64,000 nt of DNA from Escherichia coli (GTDB lineage: Bacteria > Pseudomonadota > Gammaproteobacteria > Enterobacterales > Enterobacteriaceae). Position 1 is the first letter of the stretch; every line of letters begins with the position of its first letter. The translations under genes and the position numbers were made by a program. This document shows positions 469-58,297 of the stretch, piece by piece. Below the pieces are notes generated by a model. It saw nothing but the letters and a program-made list of their open reading frames with translations, ran no database searches and was not told the DNA's origin. The stretch lies in NCBI RefSeq assembly GCF_965641715.1, contig NZ_OZ282453.1, one strand, 5' to 3'.

Positions 469-3400
469 TTACCACTGAATACCGGCACCGAGTGCGGCGG
501 AGTATTCACCCTGGCTATTGGTACTACCTTGTAATTTGTAGACCCAACGACCATTGGCGCTCACCATCGACACACCTAAAGCAACTGCCGATTCACCGTT
601 GTAAGTACCGCCACCAATAGAGGCCATGCTGGCACCTGGAGTGTAAGCCTGCGGCAGACCGGTCATTGCCATTGCAGAAGCGATACCACCGCTCAACTTG
701 CTTTCAGTTTTAGACAGTTTGTTATCCATCTCAACCATCCGCTGATCGGTGTATTGCTTCGTTTCCTGCACGCTTTGCTTCAACTGCGCGTAGTTCACCG
801 CGTCGTTGTTGTTGACGCCAGCGGAGACGTTGCTGATACGAGTCGTACCGCCGTTGCCCCCACCGAGGGTGATATTGCTATAGTCAACAGAACCATCAGC
901 GTTGGTGTCGTAACGTACACCGCCCGCCTCAGAAGACTTCAACTGTGCCACGTTAACAGCATCGGTGTCGTTTTTACCTGCGGCTACGTTGGTGATACGA
1001 CGTTGATTAGTAGATGAGCCTACAGAGATCGTATTTTCTTCGGTTGCCACAGACCCTGTACCCAGTGCGACGCTGTTATCCGCGGCAGCAATGGAACCAG
1101 AACCAATCGCGACGCTATCTTTACCCTGCGCGCTGGCATCTACACCATCGGTATTGGTCTTGAAGTACTTGGTGCTACCGGTGGTGACGATATCGCCAAT
1201 ACCGTTTTCGATATTAGTAACGCGAGTATCCAGATTAGTGACCTGATTGTTCAGGTTAGTAATGCTCTGGGTATTCTGGGAAACCTGCGCATCCGTTACT
1301 TTCAACTGACCTACGTTGACCGCATCGGTATCCGCTGAACCAGCTGCGACGTTGGTGATCTGACGTTGACCGTCTTCACTACCAACAGAAAACTCACCTA
1401 CAGAGTTCTGCGGTGCGTCCATGTTGTAGGCGGTGTAGCCAGTCTGTGCACCACGGGTGGTCTGAGAACCGTTACCCATTGCAATACTGTTTGCATGGTT
1501 TGCGCGTGCGTTACTGCCGATAGCAATGCCGTTGATCGCATCAGCCAGAACCAGAGTGTTCAAACCGATACCAATACCTGCATTACCATTAACGACAGTT
1601 TTCGCACCCATTGCCAGCGAGTCTTCACCAACGGCCAGTGAGTCTTCTGCCGTTGAGTTGGCGTGAAAGTACTTGGTTGGCGTGGTTGCGACCGCACCAA
1701 TCGCATTCTGCAATTGACGAACCGTAACGGCGTCATGGGCTTCGGAACCATCAGCTACGTTGATGATTTGGCGGTATTTACCGTCATTACCAATTGACAA
1801 TGCACCTAGCAGTTCGCCGTCAGTGGTGTCATAACCAATCACCACGCCATTTTCCGTTACGCTAGTGTCACGAGAACCTTTGGCAATCACACGGCTGGAA
1901 ACGGAGCTGCTACCCAGCGCAATACCGGTATCAACGGTGCTATTGCTGTTCTGACCAATGGCTACGCTGCTGGCACCAGACGCGACAGCGTTATAACCTA
2001 CAGCTGTAGCGCCGACACCAGAGGCGCTTGCATCGTTAAAGGCTAAACCGTTGTCGTTAGTACGAACGTAGTTGATACCAGCGCCATTTTCTTCGATATA
2101 GGTTGCGTCGGTGTTACCAGCAAGCTGATTGATGATTTGGCTGTTCTGCTCAATCATCATATTCGTCGCATTCAACTGAGAACCGTTCACTGCATCGGTA
2201 CTGTCCTCACTAATACTGCCATTAGCGACATTAGTGATGATGCTGGCTTTACCGTCATGGCTGGCATTGTAGGCTCCTGCACCGCCATTGGCAGTCTCAT
2301 CCCACAGCAGGGCGTTATCATCAAGCGCATCCAGGGCGTCACCGACGTTGTTGTACTCGGCGTTCGCAATGGTGTAAGTCGGTGCGGTGATGGTGCCGTC
2401 AGCGTTAACTTCTGCATCACCACCCAGCGCATCAGCGATGTACTTGTTGGTGGTATACAGTTGTGAGCCGTTAATAGCATCGCTGCTGGTTGCGGAGACT
2501 GTACCGGCTGCAACATTAGTGATCTTGCTGGCGGAGTTATCTTTCCCGTGACCAGCACTGAATGCACCTTTACCATCATTGGCTGTTGCATCCCACAGCA
2601 GAGCATCATCGAGAGTGGTGTCGATGGCGTTCAGGGCATCACCGACGTTATCGTAATCAGCATTAGCAATGGTGTACGTCGGCGCAGTGATGGTGCCGTC
2701 TGCATTGATTTCGGCACCACCACCCAACGCATCTACGACGTACTTATTGGTGGTATAGAGTTGCGAGCCGTTCACAGCATCAGAGCTTGTGCTTGAAACA
2801 TCCCCGTTTGCGACATCAGTGATCACGCTTGCGTCACCATTAGTACCGTGTTTGGCACTAAATTTATCTACGGAAGCGTCCCAAAGCAGGGCATCGCCGA
2901 GAGACGTGCTAAATGAGGAGTTAATCGCAGCTAGTGCATCGCCGACGTTATAATAATTTGTTTCACCGATTTTGTAGGTTGGACCGGTAAACACACCGTC
3001 AGTATTCACAGAAGCATTGCCGCCGAAGTAGGTGGCGATATTGCTGCTTAAGTCATAAAGCTGGCTGCCGTTAATGGCATCGGAACTGGTTGCAGTGACT
3101 GCGCCGTCCAGGATATTGGTGATTTTGCTGGCGGCGTTGTTGCCATGAGCAGCCGTGAAGACACCATTGTCCTTATCCCATTTCAGCGCATCTTCACCAA
3201 GGTTAGTCACCGTCTCAGTCAGGTTAGAGATGTTGGTGGTGTTAGTGGCAATATTGGTGGTATTCGTCGCCACAGCATCGTTGGTGGTTTTCAGCTGGGA
3301 GCCGTTAACGGCATCAGTGCTGCCAGCCGTCAGGTCGGCATCTTTAACGTTGGTGATTTTGCTGGTGGCGTTGTTGCCGTGAGCTGCCGTGAATACACCA

Positions 3401-5358
3401 TTGTCCTTATCCCATTTCAGCGCATCTTCACCAAGGTTAGTCACCGTCTCAGTCAGGTTAGAGATGTTGGTGGTGTTAGTGGCAATATTGGAAGTGTTAT
3501 TGGCGATATTGGTGGTATTCGTCGCCACAGCATCGTTGGTGGTTTTCAGCTGAGAGCCGTTAACGGCATCGGTGCTGTCAGCCGTCAGGTCGGCATCTTT
3601 AACGTTGGTGATTTTGCTGGTGGCGTCGGTGCCATGAGCTGCCGTGAATACACCATTGTCCTTATCCCATTTCAGCGCATCTTCACCAAGGTTAGTCACC
3701 GTCTCAGTCAGGTTAGAGATGTTGGATGTGTTAGTGGCGATATTGGTGGTGTTGGCTGCCACGGCATCGTTGGTGGTTTTCAGCTGAGAGCCATTAACCG
3801 CGTCAGTGCTGCCAGCCGTCAGGTCGCCAGCGGTGACGTTGGTGATTTTGCTGGTGGCATCAGTACCGTGTGCGGCGCTGAATGCTGTACCCTTCCAGAG
3901 GAGGGCATCATCCTTAAGGTCGCCAACGGAATCCGTCAGGTTGGTGATATTGGTGGTGTTAGTGGCGATATTGGTGGTGTTGGTTGCCACATTATCATTG
4001 GTGGTTTTCAGCTGAGAGCCGTTAACGGCGTCTTTACTGGTAGCCGAAATATCGCCATCTTTTACATTGATGATTTTGTTTTCTGCTACGGTACTGGTAA
4101 TCGTTCCATCAGCATTTTTAACAATATAATTGGCGCTGAAAGCCCCTTTAGCTGAGTCCCAGTGCAGAGTTTCATTGTCAAGGTACTGGAGTGCTTCACC
4201 AACGTTATTGAAATTCTTTTTCTTCAGTTGAAAAGACATATCCATTATTGTTCCGTTAGTAGCAACATTTGCTCCGCCTCCCAGCCTGTCTGCTACTGAC
4301 CTACTAATGGCGTAAAGTTGTGAACCGTTAATGGCTTCTTTACTGTCCGTTGAGATTGTACCTGCCGCCATATTGACGATGCGACGCTGCGCTGACCCAG
4401 AGCCTACCGATACAACGTTGTCTTCACCTGCTGTAGAGTTTGCACCAATCGCGACGGAGTTATTCCCTCCTGCAGAGGATGAACTTCCTAATGCAAGACT
4501 GTTTGATCCAACCGCAGAACTTCCTGTACCGATCGCAATAGCATTTGCGGTTGATGCGCAGCTGTTCTGGCCTAATGCGATGGTGTTTGTGTTTGATGCT
4601 TGCGCATTTTGCCCCAAGGCAAGAGCACTTGCGCCAGTAGCCGCTGCTGTATATCCCAGGGCAACAGAACCTTCACCTGTTGAATCACTGTTTGCACCTA
4701 ATGCAAGACTGTTTTTGCCTCGAGCTTTCGCTTTAGTACCTACAGCCGTCGCATTTTCAGCGGCTTCGGTCTCAGCACCTATCGCAATGGAGTTTGCTGC
4801 ACTGGCAAGTGATTGCCTGCCTAATGCCAGAGAGTCTGCGCCGTTCGCCTTTGCAGATTTTCCCAGCACTAAAGAGTTGCTGGCAGTAGTAGCAGCTTGT
4901 GCTCCGACCCCCAGGACAACTGAATATTCTGCCAGTCCGTCGGCCCCACTACCGATTGCGATCGCTCGGTTTCCGGAAGCTTCTGCCACTTGTCCGATTG
5001 ATACCGATCTCTCTCCGGTTGCGTAGCTTTGGTAACCTAATGCAGTCGAACCAATACCTGTAGCCCAGGCGTTCGCGCCCACCGCAACTGCACCAGTCCC
5101 ATTGCCCACTGAGGACGCTCGTGCACCCTGGCCAATAGCTACCCAGACATCAGTGATTTCTGTTGGATCAGAGAATGTGCCACCATCAAGTGACGCACTG
5201 GCGTTTGCCCCAAACGACGAAAACATTCCACCCGCAACCAGGGCAGAAATTAACAGCTTACTGCGACCAGATTTCTTACCACGGCTCTTCGCTGTTTCGC
5301 TGGCAACGCTATAACTGCCCGTCGCCGGATTCCAGATGACTTTAAATATTTTGTTCAT
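469..5358 (-). CDS. upaG: Trimeric autotransporter adhesin, SadA/UpaG/EhaG family, 1629 aa
   Basis: N-terminal extended signal peptide [10 protein letters not shown]...; Ala/Gly/Ser-rich head repeats (NSLALG, NSVAIG); many neck motifs S(T)DAVNGSQL; Asn/Thr-rich coiled-coil stalk; C-terminal YadA-like anchor ending ...[10 protein letters not shown]. Symbol assigned by family and position only, allele not determined. Confidence 0.85.
3140..4110. repeat. Four near-identical tandem repeat units (about 234-255 bp, 78-85 aa each) inside the adhesin stalk, with 7-aa NTTNIAT-type sub-repeats
   Basis: The string cattgtccttatcccatttcagcgcatcttcaccaaggttagtcaccgtctcagtcaggttagagatgttgg recurs at about 3165, 3399 and 3654; the antisense ORF 3145..4155 shows the same peptide three times, confirming DNA-level identity. 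Confidence 0.75.
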
Positions 5359-38614: not shown

Positions 38615-38717
38615 ATGCCAGATGCGGCGTAAACGCCTTATCCGGCCTACAAATTCTTCCAAATTCAATATATTGCAGAAATCATGTAGGCCTGATAAGC
38701 GTAGCGCATCAGGCAAT
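38615..38717. repeat. REP pair (BIME) between ysaA and avtA
   Basis: Units gatgcggcgtaaacgccttatccggcctac and gtaggcctgataagcgtagcgcatcaggcaat. Confidence 0.65.
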
Positions 38718-55192: not shown

Positions 55193-57262
55193 ATGTCTGA
55201 GAAAACTTTTCTGGTGGAAATCGGCACTGAAGAGCTGCCACCAAAAGCACTGCGCAGCCTGGCAGAGTCCTTTGCTGCGAACTTTACTGCGGAGCTGGAT
55301 AACGCAGGCCTCGCACACGGCACCGTTCAATGGTTTGCTGCTCCGCGTCGTCTGGCGCTGAAAGTAGCTAACCTGGCGGAAGCGCAACCGGATCGTGAAA
55401 TCGAAAAACGCGGCCCGGCGATTGCCCAGGCGTTCGACGCTGAAGGCAAACCGAGCAAAGCGGCAGAAGGTTGGGCGCGTGGTTGCGGTATTACCGTTGA
55501 CCAGGCTGAGCGTCTGACTACCGATAAAGGCGAATGGCTGCTGTATCGCGCCCATGTGAAGGGCGAAAGCACTGAAGCACTGCTGCCGAATATGGTTGCG
55601 ACTTCGCTGGCGAAACTGCCGATTCCGAAACTGATGCGCTGGGGTGCAAGCGACGTGCACTTCGTGCGTCCGGTGCACACCGTGACCCTGCTGCTGGGCG
55701 ACAAAGTCATTCCGGCAACCATTCTGGGCATTCAGTCCGATCGCGTGATTCGCGGCCACCGCTTTATGGGCGAGCCGGAATTCACCATCGATAACGCCGA
55801 TCAGTATCCGGAAATTCTGCGTGAGCGCGGGAAAGTCATCGCCGATTACGAAGAACGTAAGGCGAAGATTAAAGCCGATGCCGAAGAAGCAGCGCGTAAG
55901 ATTGGCGGTAACGCTGACTTAAGCGAAAGCCTGCTGGAAGAAGTGGCTTCGCTGGTGGAGTGGCCGGTCGTTCTAACCGCGAAATTTGAAGAGAAATTCC
56001 TCGCGGTGCCGTCTGAAGCACTGGTTTACACCATGAAAGGTGACCAGAAGTACTTCCCGGTGTATGCGAACGACGGCAAACTGCTGCCGAACTTTATCTT
56101 CGTTGCCAACATCGAATCGAAAGATCCGCAGCAAATTATCTCTGGTAACGAGAAAGTCGTTCGTCCACGTCTGGCTGATGCCGAGTTCTTCTTCAACACC
56201 GACCGTAAAAAACGTCTGGAAGATAACCTGCCGCGCCTGCAAACCGTGCTGTTCCAGCAACAGCTGGGTACGCTGCGTGACAAGACTGACCGCATCCAGG
56301 CGCTGGCTGGCTGGATTGCTGAACAGATTGGCGCTGACGTTAACCACGCTACCCGTGCGGGCCTGCTGTCTAAGTGTGACCTGATGACCAACATGGTCTT
56401 CGAGTTCACCGACACCCAAGGCGTTATGGGGATGCACTATGCGCGTCACGATGGCGAAGCGGAAGACGTAGCCGTGGCGCTGAATGAGCAGTATCAGCCG
56501 CGTTTTGCTGGTGATGACCTGCCGTCCAACCCGGTAGCTTGTGCGCTGGCGATTGCTGACAAGATGGATACTCTGGCGGGTATCTTCGGTATCGGTCAGC
56601 ATCCGAAAGGCGACAAAGACCCGTTTGCGCTGCGTCGTGCCGCGCTTGGCGTGCTGCGTATTATCGTTGAGAAGAACCTCAACCTTGATCTGCAAACGCT
56701 GACCGAAGAAGCGGTGCGTCTGTATGGCGATAAGCTGACTAATGCCAACGTCGTTGATGATGTTATCGACTTTATGCTCGGTCGCTTCCGCGCCTGGTAT
56801 CAGGACGAAGGTTATACCGTTGACACCATCCAGGCGGTACTGGCGCGTCGTCCGACTCGTCCGGCTGATTTCGATGCCCGCATGAAAGCGGTATCGCACT
56901 TCCGTACCCTGGAAGCAGCTGCAGCACTGGCGGCGGCGAACAAACGTGTATCTAACATCCTGGCGAAATCTGACGAAGTGCTGAGCGATCGCGTGAATGC
57001 CTCTACTCTGAAAGAGCCGGAAGAAATTAAACTGGCGATGCAGGTTGTGGTGCTACGTGACAAGCTGGAGCCGTACTTTGCGGAAGGTCGTTACCAGGAT
57101 GCGCTGGTCGAACTGGCAGAGCTGCGTGAACCGGTCGATGCCTTCTTCGATAAAGTGATGGTCATGGTTGATGACAAAGAATTGCGTATCAACCGTCTGA
57201 CCATGCTGGAGAAACTGCGCGAACTGTTCCTGCGCGTTGCGGATATTTCGCTGTTGCAGTAA
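55193..57262 (+). CDS. glyS: Glycine--tRNA ligase beta subunit, 689 aa
   Basis: Full-length match; 9-bp spacer after glyQ. Confidence 0.96.
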
Positions 57263-57275
57263 TAACGCCGTTATT

Positions 57276-57306
57276 AAAAAGCCTGCCATCTGGCAGGCTT
57301 TTTTTA
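57276..57306 (+). terminator. Rho-independent terminator of glyQS
   Basis: Stem gcctgcca / tggcaggc followed by TTTTTTT. Confidence 0.85.
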
Positions 57307-57585
57307 TCGCTAAATAATAGAGCAACCTTTAATAATCTTCTGCTGAATAAAGATTATCTCATATATTAATTTTATGAGATTTTTTTAGGATTATATCAAG
57401 GAGAAGAAACAAACTTATTAAGCTAGAATAGCCACGGGTGCTTGAGACTGTTTGTCTCAGGTATTCACCGAAAGGCAGACAGAGAAAAGCCCCACCTGAC
57501 TATAAATCAAAGTGAGGCCCCTCTATGCATAGACACCATAAGGTTAGCCTCTTACTCGTTGGAAATCAACACAGGGGGGCTGGGA

Positions 57586-57738
57586 ATGCCGCAGAAATAT
57601 AGATTGCTTTCTTTAATAGTGATTTGTTTCACGCTTTTATTTTTCACCTGGATGATAAGAGATTCACTGTGTGAATTGCATATTAAACAGGGGAGTTATG
57701 AGCTGGCGGCATTTTTAGCCTGCAATTTGAAAGAGTAA
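57586..57738 (+). CDS. hokA: Hok-family type I toxin, 50 aa
   Basis: MPQKYRLLSLIVICFTLLFFTWMIRDSLCELHIKQGSYELAAFLACNLKE: one transmembrane helix and conserved Hok C-terminus; an in-frame upstream extension exists in the ORF track (57442). Confidence 0.8.
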   Translation: MPQKYRLLSLIVICFTLLFFTWMIRDSLCELHIKQGSYELAAFLACNLKE

Positions 57739-57870
57739 GAGTCTTTGGCGGGAAATTATTCCCGCCTTTCTTACGGCGTTGGCATTCTCATTGCACCCAA
57801 ATTTATTTTTCACAAAAATAATACTAGATTTTATTACGCGATCGATTATTTATTTCCTGAAAAACAAATA

Positions 57871-57897
57871 AAAAAATCCCCGCCAAATGGCAGGGAT
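57871..57897 (-). terminator. Rho-independent terminator of cspA
   Basis: On the minus strand, hairpin atccctgcc / ggcgggga (one mismatch) followed by a U-run. Confidence 0.65.
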
Positions 57898-57924
57898 CTT
57901 AGATTCTGTGCTTTTAAGCAGAGA

Positions 57925-58137
57925 TTACAGGCTGGTTACGTTACCAGCTGCCGGGCCTTTAGCGCCGCTTTCGATGGTGAAGGACACTTTCTGACCTTCG
58001 TCCAGAGATTTGTAACCATCGTTCTGGATAGCAGAGAAGTGTACGAACACGTCTTTAGAGCCATCGTCAGGAGTGATGAAGCCGAAGCCTTTGTCAGCGT
58101 TGAACCATTTTACGATACCAGTCATTTTACCGGACAT
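57925..58137 (-). CDS. cspA: Major cold-shock protein CspA, 70 aa
   Basis: Exact CspA-type sequence with RNP motifs KGFGFI and VFVHF. Confidence 0.97.
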
Positions 58138-58297
58138 AGTGTATTACCTTTAATAATTAAGTGTGCCTTTCGGCGATATGGCGTGCTTTACAGATTTTGA
58201 AGCGTTAAAGGAATGTGCACTACGAGGGGTATCAACGATAACTCTTGAAGGGACTTGCCTTACTACACTGCTTTAATGGTCTGTACGTCAAACCGTT
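58138..58297 (-). promoter_or_regulatory. cspA long 5' UTR (cold-responsive RNA thermosensor region)
   Basis: About 160 nt upstream of the cspA start; role from established knowledge; exact transcription start not determined here. Confidence 0.6.

What the first reader, a model, noticed from the sequence alone, without database searches (positions are those of the whole stretch)
57263..57900. Intact hokA type I toxin-antitoxin locus without the IS150 found in K-12
A complete 50-aa Hok-family toxin ORF (57586-57738) lies between glyS and cspA with a 323-bp upstream region. In K-12 the hokA locus is, as I recall, disrupted by IS150 (insJK). Here the leader, including the region where the in-frame upstream ORF (57442) and the antisense Sok RNA would be encoded, is uninterrupted, so the locus may still be functional.
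Basis: partly seen in the sequence, partly recalled or inferred. Interest (0 to 1): 0.45.

Follow-up and report, generated by a model that had tools for sequence, protein, structure and literature searches.

The report
Known hokA toxin-antitoxin locus, IS-free form
This is the ordinary, already described E. coli hokA/mokA/sokA toxin–antisense-RNA locus in the uninterrupted form carried by about half of sequenced E. coli strains, differing from the laboratory strain K-12 only in lacking an inserted mobile element (plus two tiny strain-specific changes).

Summary
A 50-aa Hok/Gef ORF (57586-57738, Pfam E=9e-24) lies between glyS and cspA, and the 323-bp leader is uninterrupted. K-12 has IS150 there plus a 38-bp deletion (window 57514-57551) that removes the mokA start and the sokA promoter and 5' end.

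All hok/sok-type elements of plasmid R1 can be mapped:
- hokA promoter -10
- 5' tac element pairing with a 3' fbi element
- ucb box sequestering the mokA Shine-Dalgarno
- sokA promoter (TTGATT-17-TAACCT) and a hairpin/U-tail antisense RNA
- 3' stem-loop

This is not new. The uninterrupted locus is present in 2830 of 5426 complete E. coli genomes. An IS-free hokA from E. coli C was characterised in 1999 and reported not to kill plasmid-free cells.

The mok homologue starts at ATG 57525. A rare extra G (G6 tract; 4 of 5426 genomes) puts it out of frame here, so it stops after 25 codons instead of giving the usual 70-codon in-frame MokA. A C missing in no other genome (57781/57782) frameshifts the small antisense gene ysaE.

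Low interest; already known.

The parts
57424..57429 (+). hokA mRNA promoter -10 hexamer TAGAAT. There is no good -35, so the promoter is weak, as for R1 hok. The start site is inferred at G 57436.
   Evidence: Read from the sequence. It lies 6 nt upstream of the position that aligns with R1 hok mRNA +1 and with position 1 of the Rfam model. It is invariant in 8 of 9 IS-free alleles and mutated to TGGAAT in strain CH436. Promoter activity was not tested.
57436..57830 (+). Full-length hokA mRNA (inferred). The 5' end is at 57436. The 3' end lies somewhere after the fbi element, possibly at the AT-rich hairpin 57803-57821 and its U-run.
   Evidence: Alignment to R1-type hok mRNA, Rfam RF01794 at 57436-57588 (118 bits) and the MFE folds. 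The 3' end is not determined.
57436..57447 (+). tac (translational activator) element, GGGUGCUUGAGA, at the 5' end of the mRNA.
   Evidence: In the full-length fold it pairs with 57786-57798. In the 3'-truncated fold it pairs with 57487-57493. The same procedure recovers tac/fbi in an R1-type locus.
57487..57493 (+). ucb (upstream complementary box / anti-SD), AAGCCCC.
   Evidence: In the full-length fold its C-run (57490-57493) pairs with three of the four bases of the mokA SD (57514, 57516, 57517). In the truncated fold it is captured by tac.
57514..57517 (+). mokA Shine-Dalgarno, GAGG.
   Evidence: Aligns with the R1 mok SD and lies 7 nt upstream of ATG 57525. It is deleted in K-12.
57525..57602 (+). 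mokA reading frame in this strain: 25 codons (MHRHHKVSLLLVGNQHRGAGNAAEI), out of frame with hokA, with a stop that overlaps the hokA start region.
   Evidence: In six of the eight other IS-free alleles sampled the same ATG opens a 70-codon frame fused in frame to hokA.
57479..57534 (-). sokA antisense RNA (inferred, about 56 nt). It would be complementary to the mokA SD, the start codon and the first codons. It has a single-stranded 5' tail, one long hairpin and a CUUUUCUCU tail.
   Evidence: The 3' part (57479-57513) equals the K-12 'sokA' pseudogene annotation. The 5' end is placed by analogy with R1 Sok (own knowledge). The transcript itself was not observed.
57541..57569 (-). sokA promoter: -35 TTGATT (57569-57564), 17-nt spacer, -10 TAACCT (57546-57541).
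   Evidence: It is at the same position as the R1 Sok promoter TTGCGC-17-TATCCT in the alignment. It is invariant in all nine IS-free alleles compared. The -10 hexamer is lost in K-12 through the 38-bp deletion. It was not picked up by the strict consensus scan.
57574..57579 (+). G6 tract in the hokA Shine-Dalgarno region. It is one G longer than in nearly all E. coli, and this sets the mokA/hokA frame relationship.
   Evidence: other alleles have G5, GGAGG or GGGAG. In one search only 4 of 5426 genomes have G6 exactly, and 3 more carry a one-base-longer variant, probably G7.
57586..57738 (+). hokA toxin CDS, 50 aa, with Cys29 and Cys46 encoded directly.
   Evidence: The nucleotide sequence is identical to hokA of strain 33F4 (WP_001135738.1). 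It differs from K-12 HokA at E35G and K47N.
57747..57766 (+). GC-rich 3' stem-loop (GGCGGGAA-AUUA-UUCCCGCC followed by UUUCUU). It corresponds to the R1 stem-loop that halts 3' processing and stabilises the truncated mRNA.
   Evidence: Terminator-like hit, the folds and its position homologous to the R1 GGCGGGC...GCCCGCC hairpin.
57786..57798 (+). fbi (fold-back inhibition) element, UCUCAUUGCACCC.
   Evidence: It pairs with the 5' end in every full-length fold tried. The duplex energy is -18.4 kcal/mol, and 2 of 2000 shuffled 3' UTRs do as well.
57781..57782 (.). Site of a 1-nt deletion (a missing C) private to this sequence. It lies in the hokA 3' UTR and in codon 2 of ysaE on the opposite strand.
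   Evidence: All eight other IS-free alleles and K-12 have the C. A 50-nt probe across the site finds no match in 5426 genomes. The ysaE frame reads MPTP* here. The predicted hokA mRNA fold is unchanged.

Best explanation
The region is the chromosomal hokA/mokA/sokA type I toxin-antitoxin locus of E. coli in its insertion-free configuration.

Inferred mechanism, by homology with plasmid R1 hok/sok:
1. A weak promoter (-10 at 57424) makes a stable hokA mRNA starting at 57436.
2. The 5' end of that mRNA (tac) pairs with a 3' element (fbi, 57786-57798). In this closed form the mokA Shine-Dalgarno is held by the ucb box, and the hokA SD and AUG are buried in a long helix, so nothing is translated.
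3. Slow 3' trimming back to the stem-loop at 57747-57766 removes fbi.
4. tac then captures ucb, which frees the mokA ribosome-binding site.
5. That site is the target of the roughly 56-nt antisense RNA SokA, transcribed from a promoter inside mokA (57569-57541, minus strand). SokA blocks mokA translation and should trigger duplex cleavage.
6. If SokA is lost, ribosomes translating mokA open the hokA start, and the 50-aa membrane toxin HokA is made.

In this strain an extra G makes mokA a 25-codon ORF that stops 14 nt past the first base of the hokA AUG (57586). This arrangement is compatible with termination-reinitiation coupling. The usual allele has a 70-codon MokA-HokA in-frame fusion.

What is shown here: the identity of the locus, the uninterrupted state, the presence and position of every element, and the predicted alternative folds.

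What is inferred: transcription, processing, SokA action and toxicity of this allele.

The physiological activity is most likely low or conditional, as reported for other IS-free chromosomal hok loci.
For: - Pfam HOK_GEF E=9e-24.
- Rfam hok/sok leader, 118 bits, at 57436-57588.
- The orthologous position between glyS and cspA is annotated hokA in RefSeq genomes.
- K-12 comparison shows IS150 plus a 38-bp deletion there and none here.
- Alignment with an R1-type hok/sok locus lines up the 5' end, the AGCCCC box, the GAGG SD, the Sok promoter region and the 3' hairpin.
- MFE folds give 5'-3' pairing in the full-length RNA and tac-ucb pairing in the truncated RNA.
- The same method recovers tac/fbi in the R1-type control, and only 2 of 2000 shuffled UTRs match the duplex energy.
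- The sokA promoter hexamers are invariant in nine alleles.
- SokA folds as a 5' tail plus hairpin plus U-tail.
- HokA from MG1655 is toxic when expressed (bioRxiv 10.1101/2025.08.07.668861).
Against: - No expression data exist for this strain.
- The IS-free hokA locus of E. coli C did not mediate post-segregational killing and was not activated by rifampicin (Pedersen & Gerdes 1999, as cited). Structural completeness therefore does not guarantee activity.
- The sokA -10 (TAACCT) and the hokA promoter are weak matches, and the consensus scan did not report either.
- The mokA frame here is atypical, and its effect on coupling is unknown.
- HokA here differs from the tested K-12 protein at two residues.
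Confidence: 0.88

Rival explanations
1. The locus is complete and fully active. Loss of SokA (for example on transcription arrest) would lead to HokA synthesis and cell killing or dormancy, so this strain carries a working toxin-antitoxin system that K-12 lacks.
For: Every R1-type element is present and the predicted folds behave as in R1. HokA encodes both cysteines needed for toxicity without RNA editing, and K-12 HokA is toxic on overexpression.
Against: Published tests of IS-free hokA (E. coli C) found no post-segregational killing and no rifampicin activation (citing Pedersen & Gerdes 1999). PMC11551753 calls all five chromosomal hok-sok pairs 'putatively inactivated'. The mokA frame here is atypical.
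Confidence: 0.2
2. The locus is free of IS150 but is decaying by point mutation. The extra G uncouples mokA from hokA, so HokA cannot be made from the native transcript. The missing C is a further lesion. On this reading it is a silent remnant.
For: The G6 tract is found in only 4 of 5426 genomes, and the missing C in none. Other IS-free alleles show independent lesions: a -10 mutation and a 1-nt deletion in CH436, and a disrupted mokA SD in RM10425-C1. This suggests weak selection on the regulatory region.
Against: R1 mok is itself out of frame with hok (own knowledge of the R1 sequence), so coupling does not require an in-frame arrangement. A mok stop 14 nt past the first base of the hokA AUG is a classical coupling geometry. 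Neither indel changes the predicted mRNA folds. The hokA ORF is intact and identical to a widespread allele.
Confidence: 0.25
3. The two single-base indels (G6 homopolymer, missing C) are sequencing or assembly errors. The real locus would then be the common allele with a 70-codon in-frame mokA and an intact ysaE.
For: One indel is in a homopolymer, the classic site of length errors. The other is unique among 5426 genomes. Three of the four exact G6 genomes belong to one set of near-identical assemblies, 32F4/33F4/33E.
Against: G6 is shared with an unrelated assembly (ECNB21-M121) and with the nearest relatives of the window. The missing C is not in a homopolymer. No read data are available to decide.
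Confidence: 0.3

Closest known systems
hokA/sokA locus of IS-free E. coli strains (E. coli C; Pedersen & Gerdes 1999, Mol Microbiol 32:1090)
   Same: Same chromosomal position (glyS-hokA-cspA). No IS150. All hok/sok regulatory elements are present. The same HokA protein family member is annotated hokA in RefSeq, and 2830 of 5426 complete genomes carry the uninterrupted form.
   Different: This sequence has one extra G in the G tract (57574-57579), which shortens mokA to 25 out-of-frame codons. It also lacks one C at 57781/57782. I could not read the 1999 paper itself, only later summaries of it.
E. coli K-12 MG1655 hokA (b4455) / mokA (b4647, pseudogene) / sokA (b4614, pseudogene)
   Same: The flanking sequence is 97-99% identical, and HokA is 48/50 identical.
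   Different: K-12 has IS150 32 nt upstream of hokA and lacks window 57514-57551. This removes the mokA SD and ATG, the 5' end of sokA and the sokA -10, and separates hokA from its promoter. Its tract reads GGAGG rather than G6.
Plasmid R1 hok/mok/sok (parB) post-segregational killing system
   Same: The architecture and order of elements match: tac, ucb, mok SD and start, the Sok promoter inside mok on the opposite strand, hok, the 3' hairpin and fbi. Both show the predicted closed-to-open refolding. The toxin family is the same.
   Different: This locus is chromosomal. The coding part shares only patchy nucleotide similarity with R1. mok is 25 codons here, against 70 codons overlapping nearly all of hok in R1. 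There is no GC-rich terminal terminator after fbi. The chromosomal homologues were reported not to stabilise plasmids.

Membership tests
Hok/Gef toxin family (Pfam PF01848) | Peptide of about 50 aa that matches the HOK_GEF profile over its full length | tested here: met
   83.2 bits against a cut-off of 22, E=9.1e-24, profile positions 1-42 of 42.
Hok/Gef toxin family (Pfam PF01848) | Two conserved cysteines (positions 29 and 46 in HokB numbering) that form the disulfide linked to toxicity | tested here: met
   C29 and C46 are encoded directly in the ORF. Their significance is taken from bioRxiv 10.1101/2025.08.07.668861.
Hok/Gef toxin family (Pfam PF01848) | Toxicity on expression (membrane damage) | not testable with these tools
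   K-12 HokA is reported to be toxic. This allele (E35G, K47N) has not been tested.
hok/sok-type type I toxin-antitoxin locus | hok mRNA leader with the family's conserved sequence and structure | tested here: met
   Rfam RF01794, 118 bits (gathering score 59), model positions 1-157 of 157, at 57436-57588 on the plus strand.
hok/sok-type type I toxin-antitoxin locus | Long-range 5'-3' fold-back (tac/fbi) in the full-length mRNA, with a switch to tac/ucb pairing after 3' truncation | tested here: met
   In the MFE folds 57436-57447 pairs with 57786-57798, and after truncation 57436-57443 pairs with 57487-57493. The R1 control behaves the same way, and the shuffle test gave 2 of 2000. This is prediction only, with no probing data.
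hok/sok-type type I toxin-antitoxin locus | Antisense RNA gene with its own promoter, complementary to the mok translation-initiation region | tested here: inconclusive
   Promoter-like TTGATT-17-TAACCT lies at the position homologous to the R1 Sok promoter and is invariant in nine alleles. The predicted RNA has the tail plus hairpin plus U-run form. The strict consensus scan did not report the promoter, and no transcript data exist.
hok/sok-type type I toxin-antitoxin locus | mok reading frame with an SD upstream of hok and overlapping the hok start, so that hok translation is coupled to it | tested here: met
   GAGG 57514-57517 and ATG 57525. The frame runs across the hokA SD and AUG and stops at 57600-57602. 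It is atypically short (25 codons rather than 70). Coupling itself was not tested.
hok/sok-type type I toxin-antitoxin locus | Post-segregational killing or rifampicin-induced activation | not testable with these tools
   Reported as negative for IS-free hokA of E. coli C (citing Pedersen & Gerdes 1999).
hokA orthologue (as opposed to hokB-E) | Location between glyS and cspA, and near-identity to annotated hokA | tested here: met
   5425 of 5426 complete E. coli genomes match the region, with hokA annotated under the match. Synteny glyS-hokA-cspA-yiaG-yiaF holds.

The most novel reading that the evidence does not exclude
The G tract that forms the hokA Shine-Dalgarno (G5 in nearly all strains, G6 here, probably G7 in three genomes) could act as a slippage switch. 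One state would be a 70-aa in-frame MokA-HokA fusion. The other would be a short 25-codon leader ORF coupled to free 50-aa HokA. Rare variants such as this one would then express the toxin differently from the common allele.
Probability: 0.04. Interest if true: 0.4.

Novelty: already known. Interest (0 to 1): 0.08.

Why it matters
It matters little beyond correct annotation. The locus should be labelled hokA with mokA (57525-57602 in this strain) and sokA (about 57534-57479, minus strand). It should not be treated as a discovery.

The IS-free state is the majority condition in E. coli and was characterised in 1999.

The only points of modest value are population-level. IS150 has entered the same few bases of the hokA leader at least twice, in opposite orientations. 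IS-free alleles show scattered small lesions. Both fit the published view that chromosomal hok loci are under weak or fluctuating selection.

Anyone wishing to test chromosomal hok function should note that this allele has an atypical mokA frame.

Tried and rejected
- I considered whether the TTG-57442 in-frame ORF is mok and rejected it. It begins inside the tac element with no SD, and its frame joins hokA only through the rare extra G.
- I considered reading the plus-strand Rfam 'sok' hit as the antitoxin gene and rejected it. The 157-position model spans the hok mRNA from +1 to the hok AUG, so it is the leader in the sense orientation.
- Weak Rfam hits (STnc370, Phe/Trp leaders, istR and others) at 57206-57385 are all below gathering score. 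They sit on the glyS terminator hairpin, so I treated them as terminator look-alikes.
- The consensus promoter scan found only one unrelated site and neither the hokA nor the sokA promoter. Promoter assignments therefore rest on homology with R1, not on consensus strength.
- The first literature search on hokA/sokA/IS150 was swamped by unrelated words.
- The primary 1999 paper is not in the library, so I relied on later papers' summaries.
- The plasmid search showed only leader-level similarity to plasmid hok loci. Two 'plasmid' records are evidently chromosomes.
- I did not run structure prediction, protein database searches or metagenome scans. Identity was already unambiguous.

Full report
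**1. Observation**

The sequence at 57263-57900 is as described.
- glyS ends at 57262.
- An ATG at 57586 opens a 50-codon ORF ending at TAA 57736-57738.
- cspA lies on the minus strand at 57925-58137, with its complete mRNA (thermoregulator) at 57870-58297.

The 50-aa product matches Pfam HOK_GEF end to end (83 bits, E=9e-24). Rfam's hok/sok leader model RF01794 scores 118 bits (gathering score 59) at 57436-57588.

A megablast of 57263-57900 against 5426 complete E. coli genomes hits 5425 of them, always on the chromosome, with 'hokA: type I toxin-antitoxin system toxin HokA' annotated under the match. The feature is real and is hokA.

**2. Comparison with K-12**

In MG1655 the order is cspA, ysaE, hokA, mokA (pseudogene), IS150 (insJ/insK), sokA (35-nt pseudogene), glyS.

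Splicing IS150 out of K-12 and aligning it to the window shows that K-12 also lacks window 57514-57551, which is 38 bp. That stretch holds:
- the mokA Shine-Dalgarno and ATG;
- the 5' end of sokA;
- the sokA -10 hexamer.

The window has all of it, uninterrupted.

**3. Anatomy**

I aligned the window with an R1-type hok/sok locus fetched from an IncFII plasmid (L003) and folded the RNAs. Every element of the R1 paradigm can be placed.

| Element | Window coordinates | Note |
|---|---|---|
| hokA promoter -10 | 57424-57429 | TAGAAT, 6 nt before G 57436, which aligns with hok mRNA +1 |
| tac | 57436-57447 | 5' end of the mRNA |
| ucb | 57487-57493 | AAGCCCC |
| mokA SD | 57514-57517 | GAGG |
| mokA ATG | 57525 | |
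| sokA promoter (minus strand) | 57569-57541 | TTGATT-17-TAACCT, collinear with R1's TTGCGC-17-TATCCT |
| hokA SD | 57574-57579 | the G tract |
| hokA CDS | 57586-57738 | |
| 3' hairpin | 57747-57766 | GC-rich, followed by UUUCUU; counterpart of the R1 processing-stop hairpin |
| fbi | 57786-57798 | |

The predicted folds behave as in R1.
- In the minimum-free-energy fold of the full-length RNA (any 3' end from 57800 to 57846), nucleotides 57436-57447 pair with 57786-57798. Three of the four mokA SD bases pair with the ucb C-run. The hokA SD and AUG lie inside a long helix.
- When the RNA is cut after the 3' hairpin, the 5' end instead pairs with 57487-57493.
- As a control, the same procedure recovers the known tac/fbi pairing in the R1-type locus (nt 1-10 with 382-391).
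- Only 2 of 2000 shuffled 3' UTRs bind the hokA 5' end as well as the real one (-18.4 kcal/mol).

The predicted SokA (about 57534 to 57479, minus strand) has an unpaired 5' tail, one long hairpin and a U-rich tail. Its 3' 35 nt coincide with the K-12 sokA annotation.

The sokA promoter hexamers are invariant in all nine IS-free alleles I aligned.

These are sequence-level and prediction-level results. Transcription, processing and antisense action are inferred from the R1 system as summarised in PMC9841398.

**4.

The 'in-frame upstream ORF (57442)' is not mok.
- It starts at a TTG 6 nt into the mRNA, inside tac, with no SD.
- The mok homologue is the ATG at 57525.

I sampled eight other IS-free alleles.
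- In six of them this ATG opens a 70-codon frame that runs in frame into hokA and shares its stop.
- The closest relative, strain 33F4, shares the window's 25-codon frame.
- In strain RM10425-C1 no mokA start was found.

The window has one extra G in the tract 57574-57579 (G6 instead of G5, GGAGG or GGGAG). This puts mokA out of frame, so it ends at TAG 57600-57602 after 25 codons.

I used a 49-nt probe designed so that only genomes sharing the tract length can seed a match. It found 4 genomes with G6, of which three are near-identical calf and farm isolates. It found 3 more with a one-base-longer variant, probably G7, out of 5426.

A mok frame ending just inside hok is still a plausible coupling geometry, and R1's own mok is out of frame with hok (my knowledge of the R1 sequence). 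I therefore do not read this as inactivation, but it is atypical.

**5. A second private change**

One C present in every other allele is missing between 57781 and 57782. A 50-nt probe across it finds no match in any complete genome.
- It lies in the hokA 3' UTR just upstream of fbi.
- It does not alter the predicted folds.
- It frameshifts the 23-aa antisense small-protein gene ysaE, which here reads MPTP-stop.

Either indel could be a sequencing error; I cannot tell without reads.

**6. Population picture**

Of the 5426 genomes, 2830 carry the region in one uninterrupted piece (at least 80% of the query in one place).

Most of the rest have IS150. From the evenly spaced sample of the ranking there are two types.

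| | Type 1 (K-12-like) | Type 2 (e.g. CFSAN064035, AW1.7) |
|---|---|---|
| Sample rows (of 30) | about 8 | about 5 |
| Match resumes at | 57553 | 57508 |
| Transposase direction | opposite to hokA | same as hokA |
| Other features | 38-bp deletion | 3-bp AAG duplication at 57510-57512 (read in CFSAN064035), no deletion |

These are supported. IS150 has therefore entered the same few bases at least twice. PMC11551753 reports the same habit at sokE.

Some IS-free alleles carry their own lesions.
- CH436 has the hokA -10 changed to TGGAAT and a 1-nt deletion.
- RM10425-C1 has GTGTACTG, the IS150 terminal repeat, in place of the mokA SD, which looks like an excision scar.

**7. Function**

HokA from MG1655 is toxic when expressed and needs no RNA editing, because both cysteines are encoded (bioRxiv 10.1101/2025.08.07.668861). 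The window's HokA keeps both cysteines. It differs from K-12 at E35G and K47N, and is the widespread allele WP_001135738.1.

The same preprint summarises Pedersen & Gerdes 1999 (reference confirmed). The IS-free hokA locus of E. coli C did not mediate post-segregational killing and was not activated by rifampicin. This led those authors to regard chromosomal hok/sok loci as inactive.

My best reading is therefore a structurally complete hok/sok-type locus that, if it acts at all, works by the R1 mechanism, with native activity probably low or conditional.

**8. Novelty and verdict**

The locus, its IS-free form and its regulatory anatomy have been in the literature since 1999, and the gene is routinely annotated. 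The finding is a correct recognition of a known element with one misassigned part (mok). Novelty: already known. Interest: low.

The most novel reading the evidence does not exclude is that G-tract length variation switches between a fused and a coupled mokA-hokA arrangement. It rests on 7 of 5426 genomes and may reflect sequencing error, so I give it about 4%.

Noticed in passing
window 57715-57785 (-), indel at 57781/57782: The 23-aa small-protein gene ysaE, annotated in K-12 antisense to the hokA 3' end, is frameshifted in this sequence (ATG at 57785 reads MPTP-stop). One C is missing that every other allele examined has. No complete E. coli genome has the deletion.
   Followed up: yes
L001 (K-12) against L004 and L005, at window 57508-57553: IS150 sits in the hokA leader in roughly 45% of complete E. 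coli genomes, in two opposite orientations. The K-12 type also has a 38-bp adjacent deletion. The other type has a clean 3-bp AAG target duplication (read in L004; the L005 junction is slightly different). This means at least two independent insertions within a few bases, so it is a hot spot. The literature reports the same for sokE.
   Followed up: partly
L008 (E. coli O145 RM10425-C1), equivalent of window 57513-57518: The mokA Shine-Dalgarno GAGG is replaced by GTGTACTG. TGTACTG is the IS150 terminal inverted repeat, so this looks like a scar left by loss of IS150.
   Followed up: no
L013 (strain CH436), equivalents of window 57425 and 57585: An IS-free hokA allele has the promoter -10 changed from TAGAAT to TGGAAT. 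A 1-nt deletion just before the hokA ATG gives a 29-codon out-of-frame mokA. This is independent small-scale decay of the regulatory region.
   Followed up: no
L006 (strain E21), insertion at about window 57305: IS200C is inserted just after the glyS terminator, upstream of the hokA promoter. yidD rather than cspA follows hokA, which indicates a rearrangement at this locus in that strain.
   Followed up: no
window 57436-57588 (+): Rfam family RF01794, named 'sok antitoxin', matches the hok mRNA strand from +1 to the hok AUG (157 positions). It does not match the roughly 60-nt antisense RNA on the other strand. The strand of such a hit should not be taken as the direction of the antitoxin gene.
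   Followed up: partly
window 57354-57386 (+): An AT-rich inverted repeat (ATCTCATA...TATGAGAT) followed by a run of seven T lies between the glyS terminator and the hokA promoter. Its role is unknown.
   Followed up: no
window 38651-38693 (+) and 469-5358 (-): There is an Rfam ES036 (CssrF) sRNA hit above gathering score (46 bits) at 38651-38693. There is also a 1629-aa ORF near the start of the window. Neither was examined.
   Followed up: no
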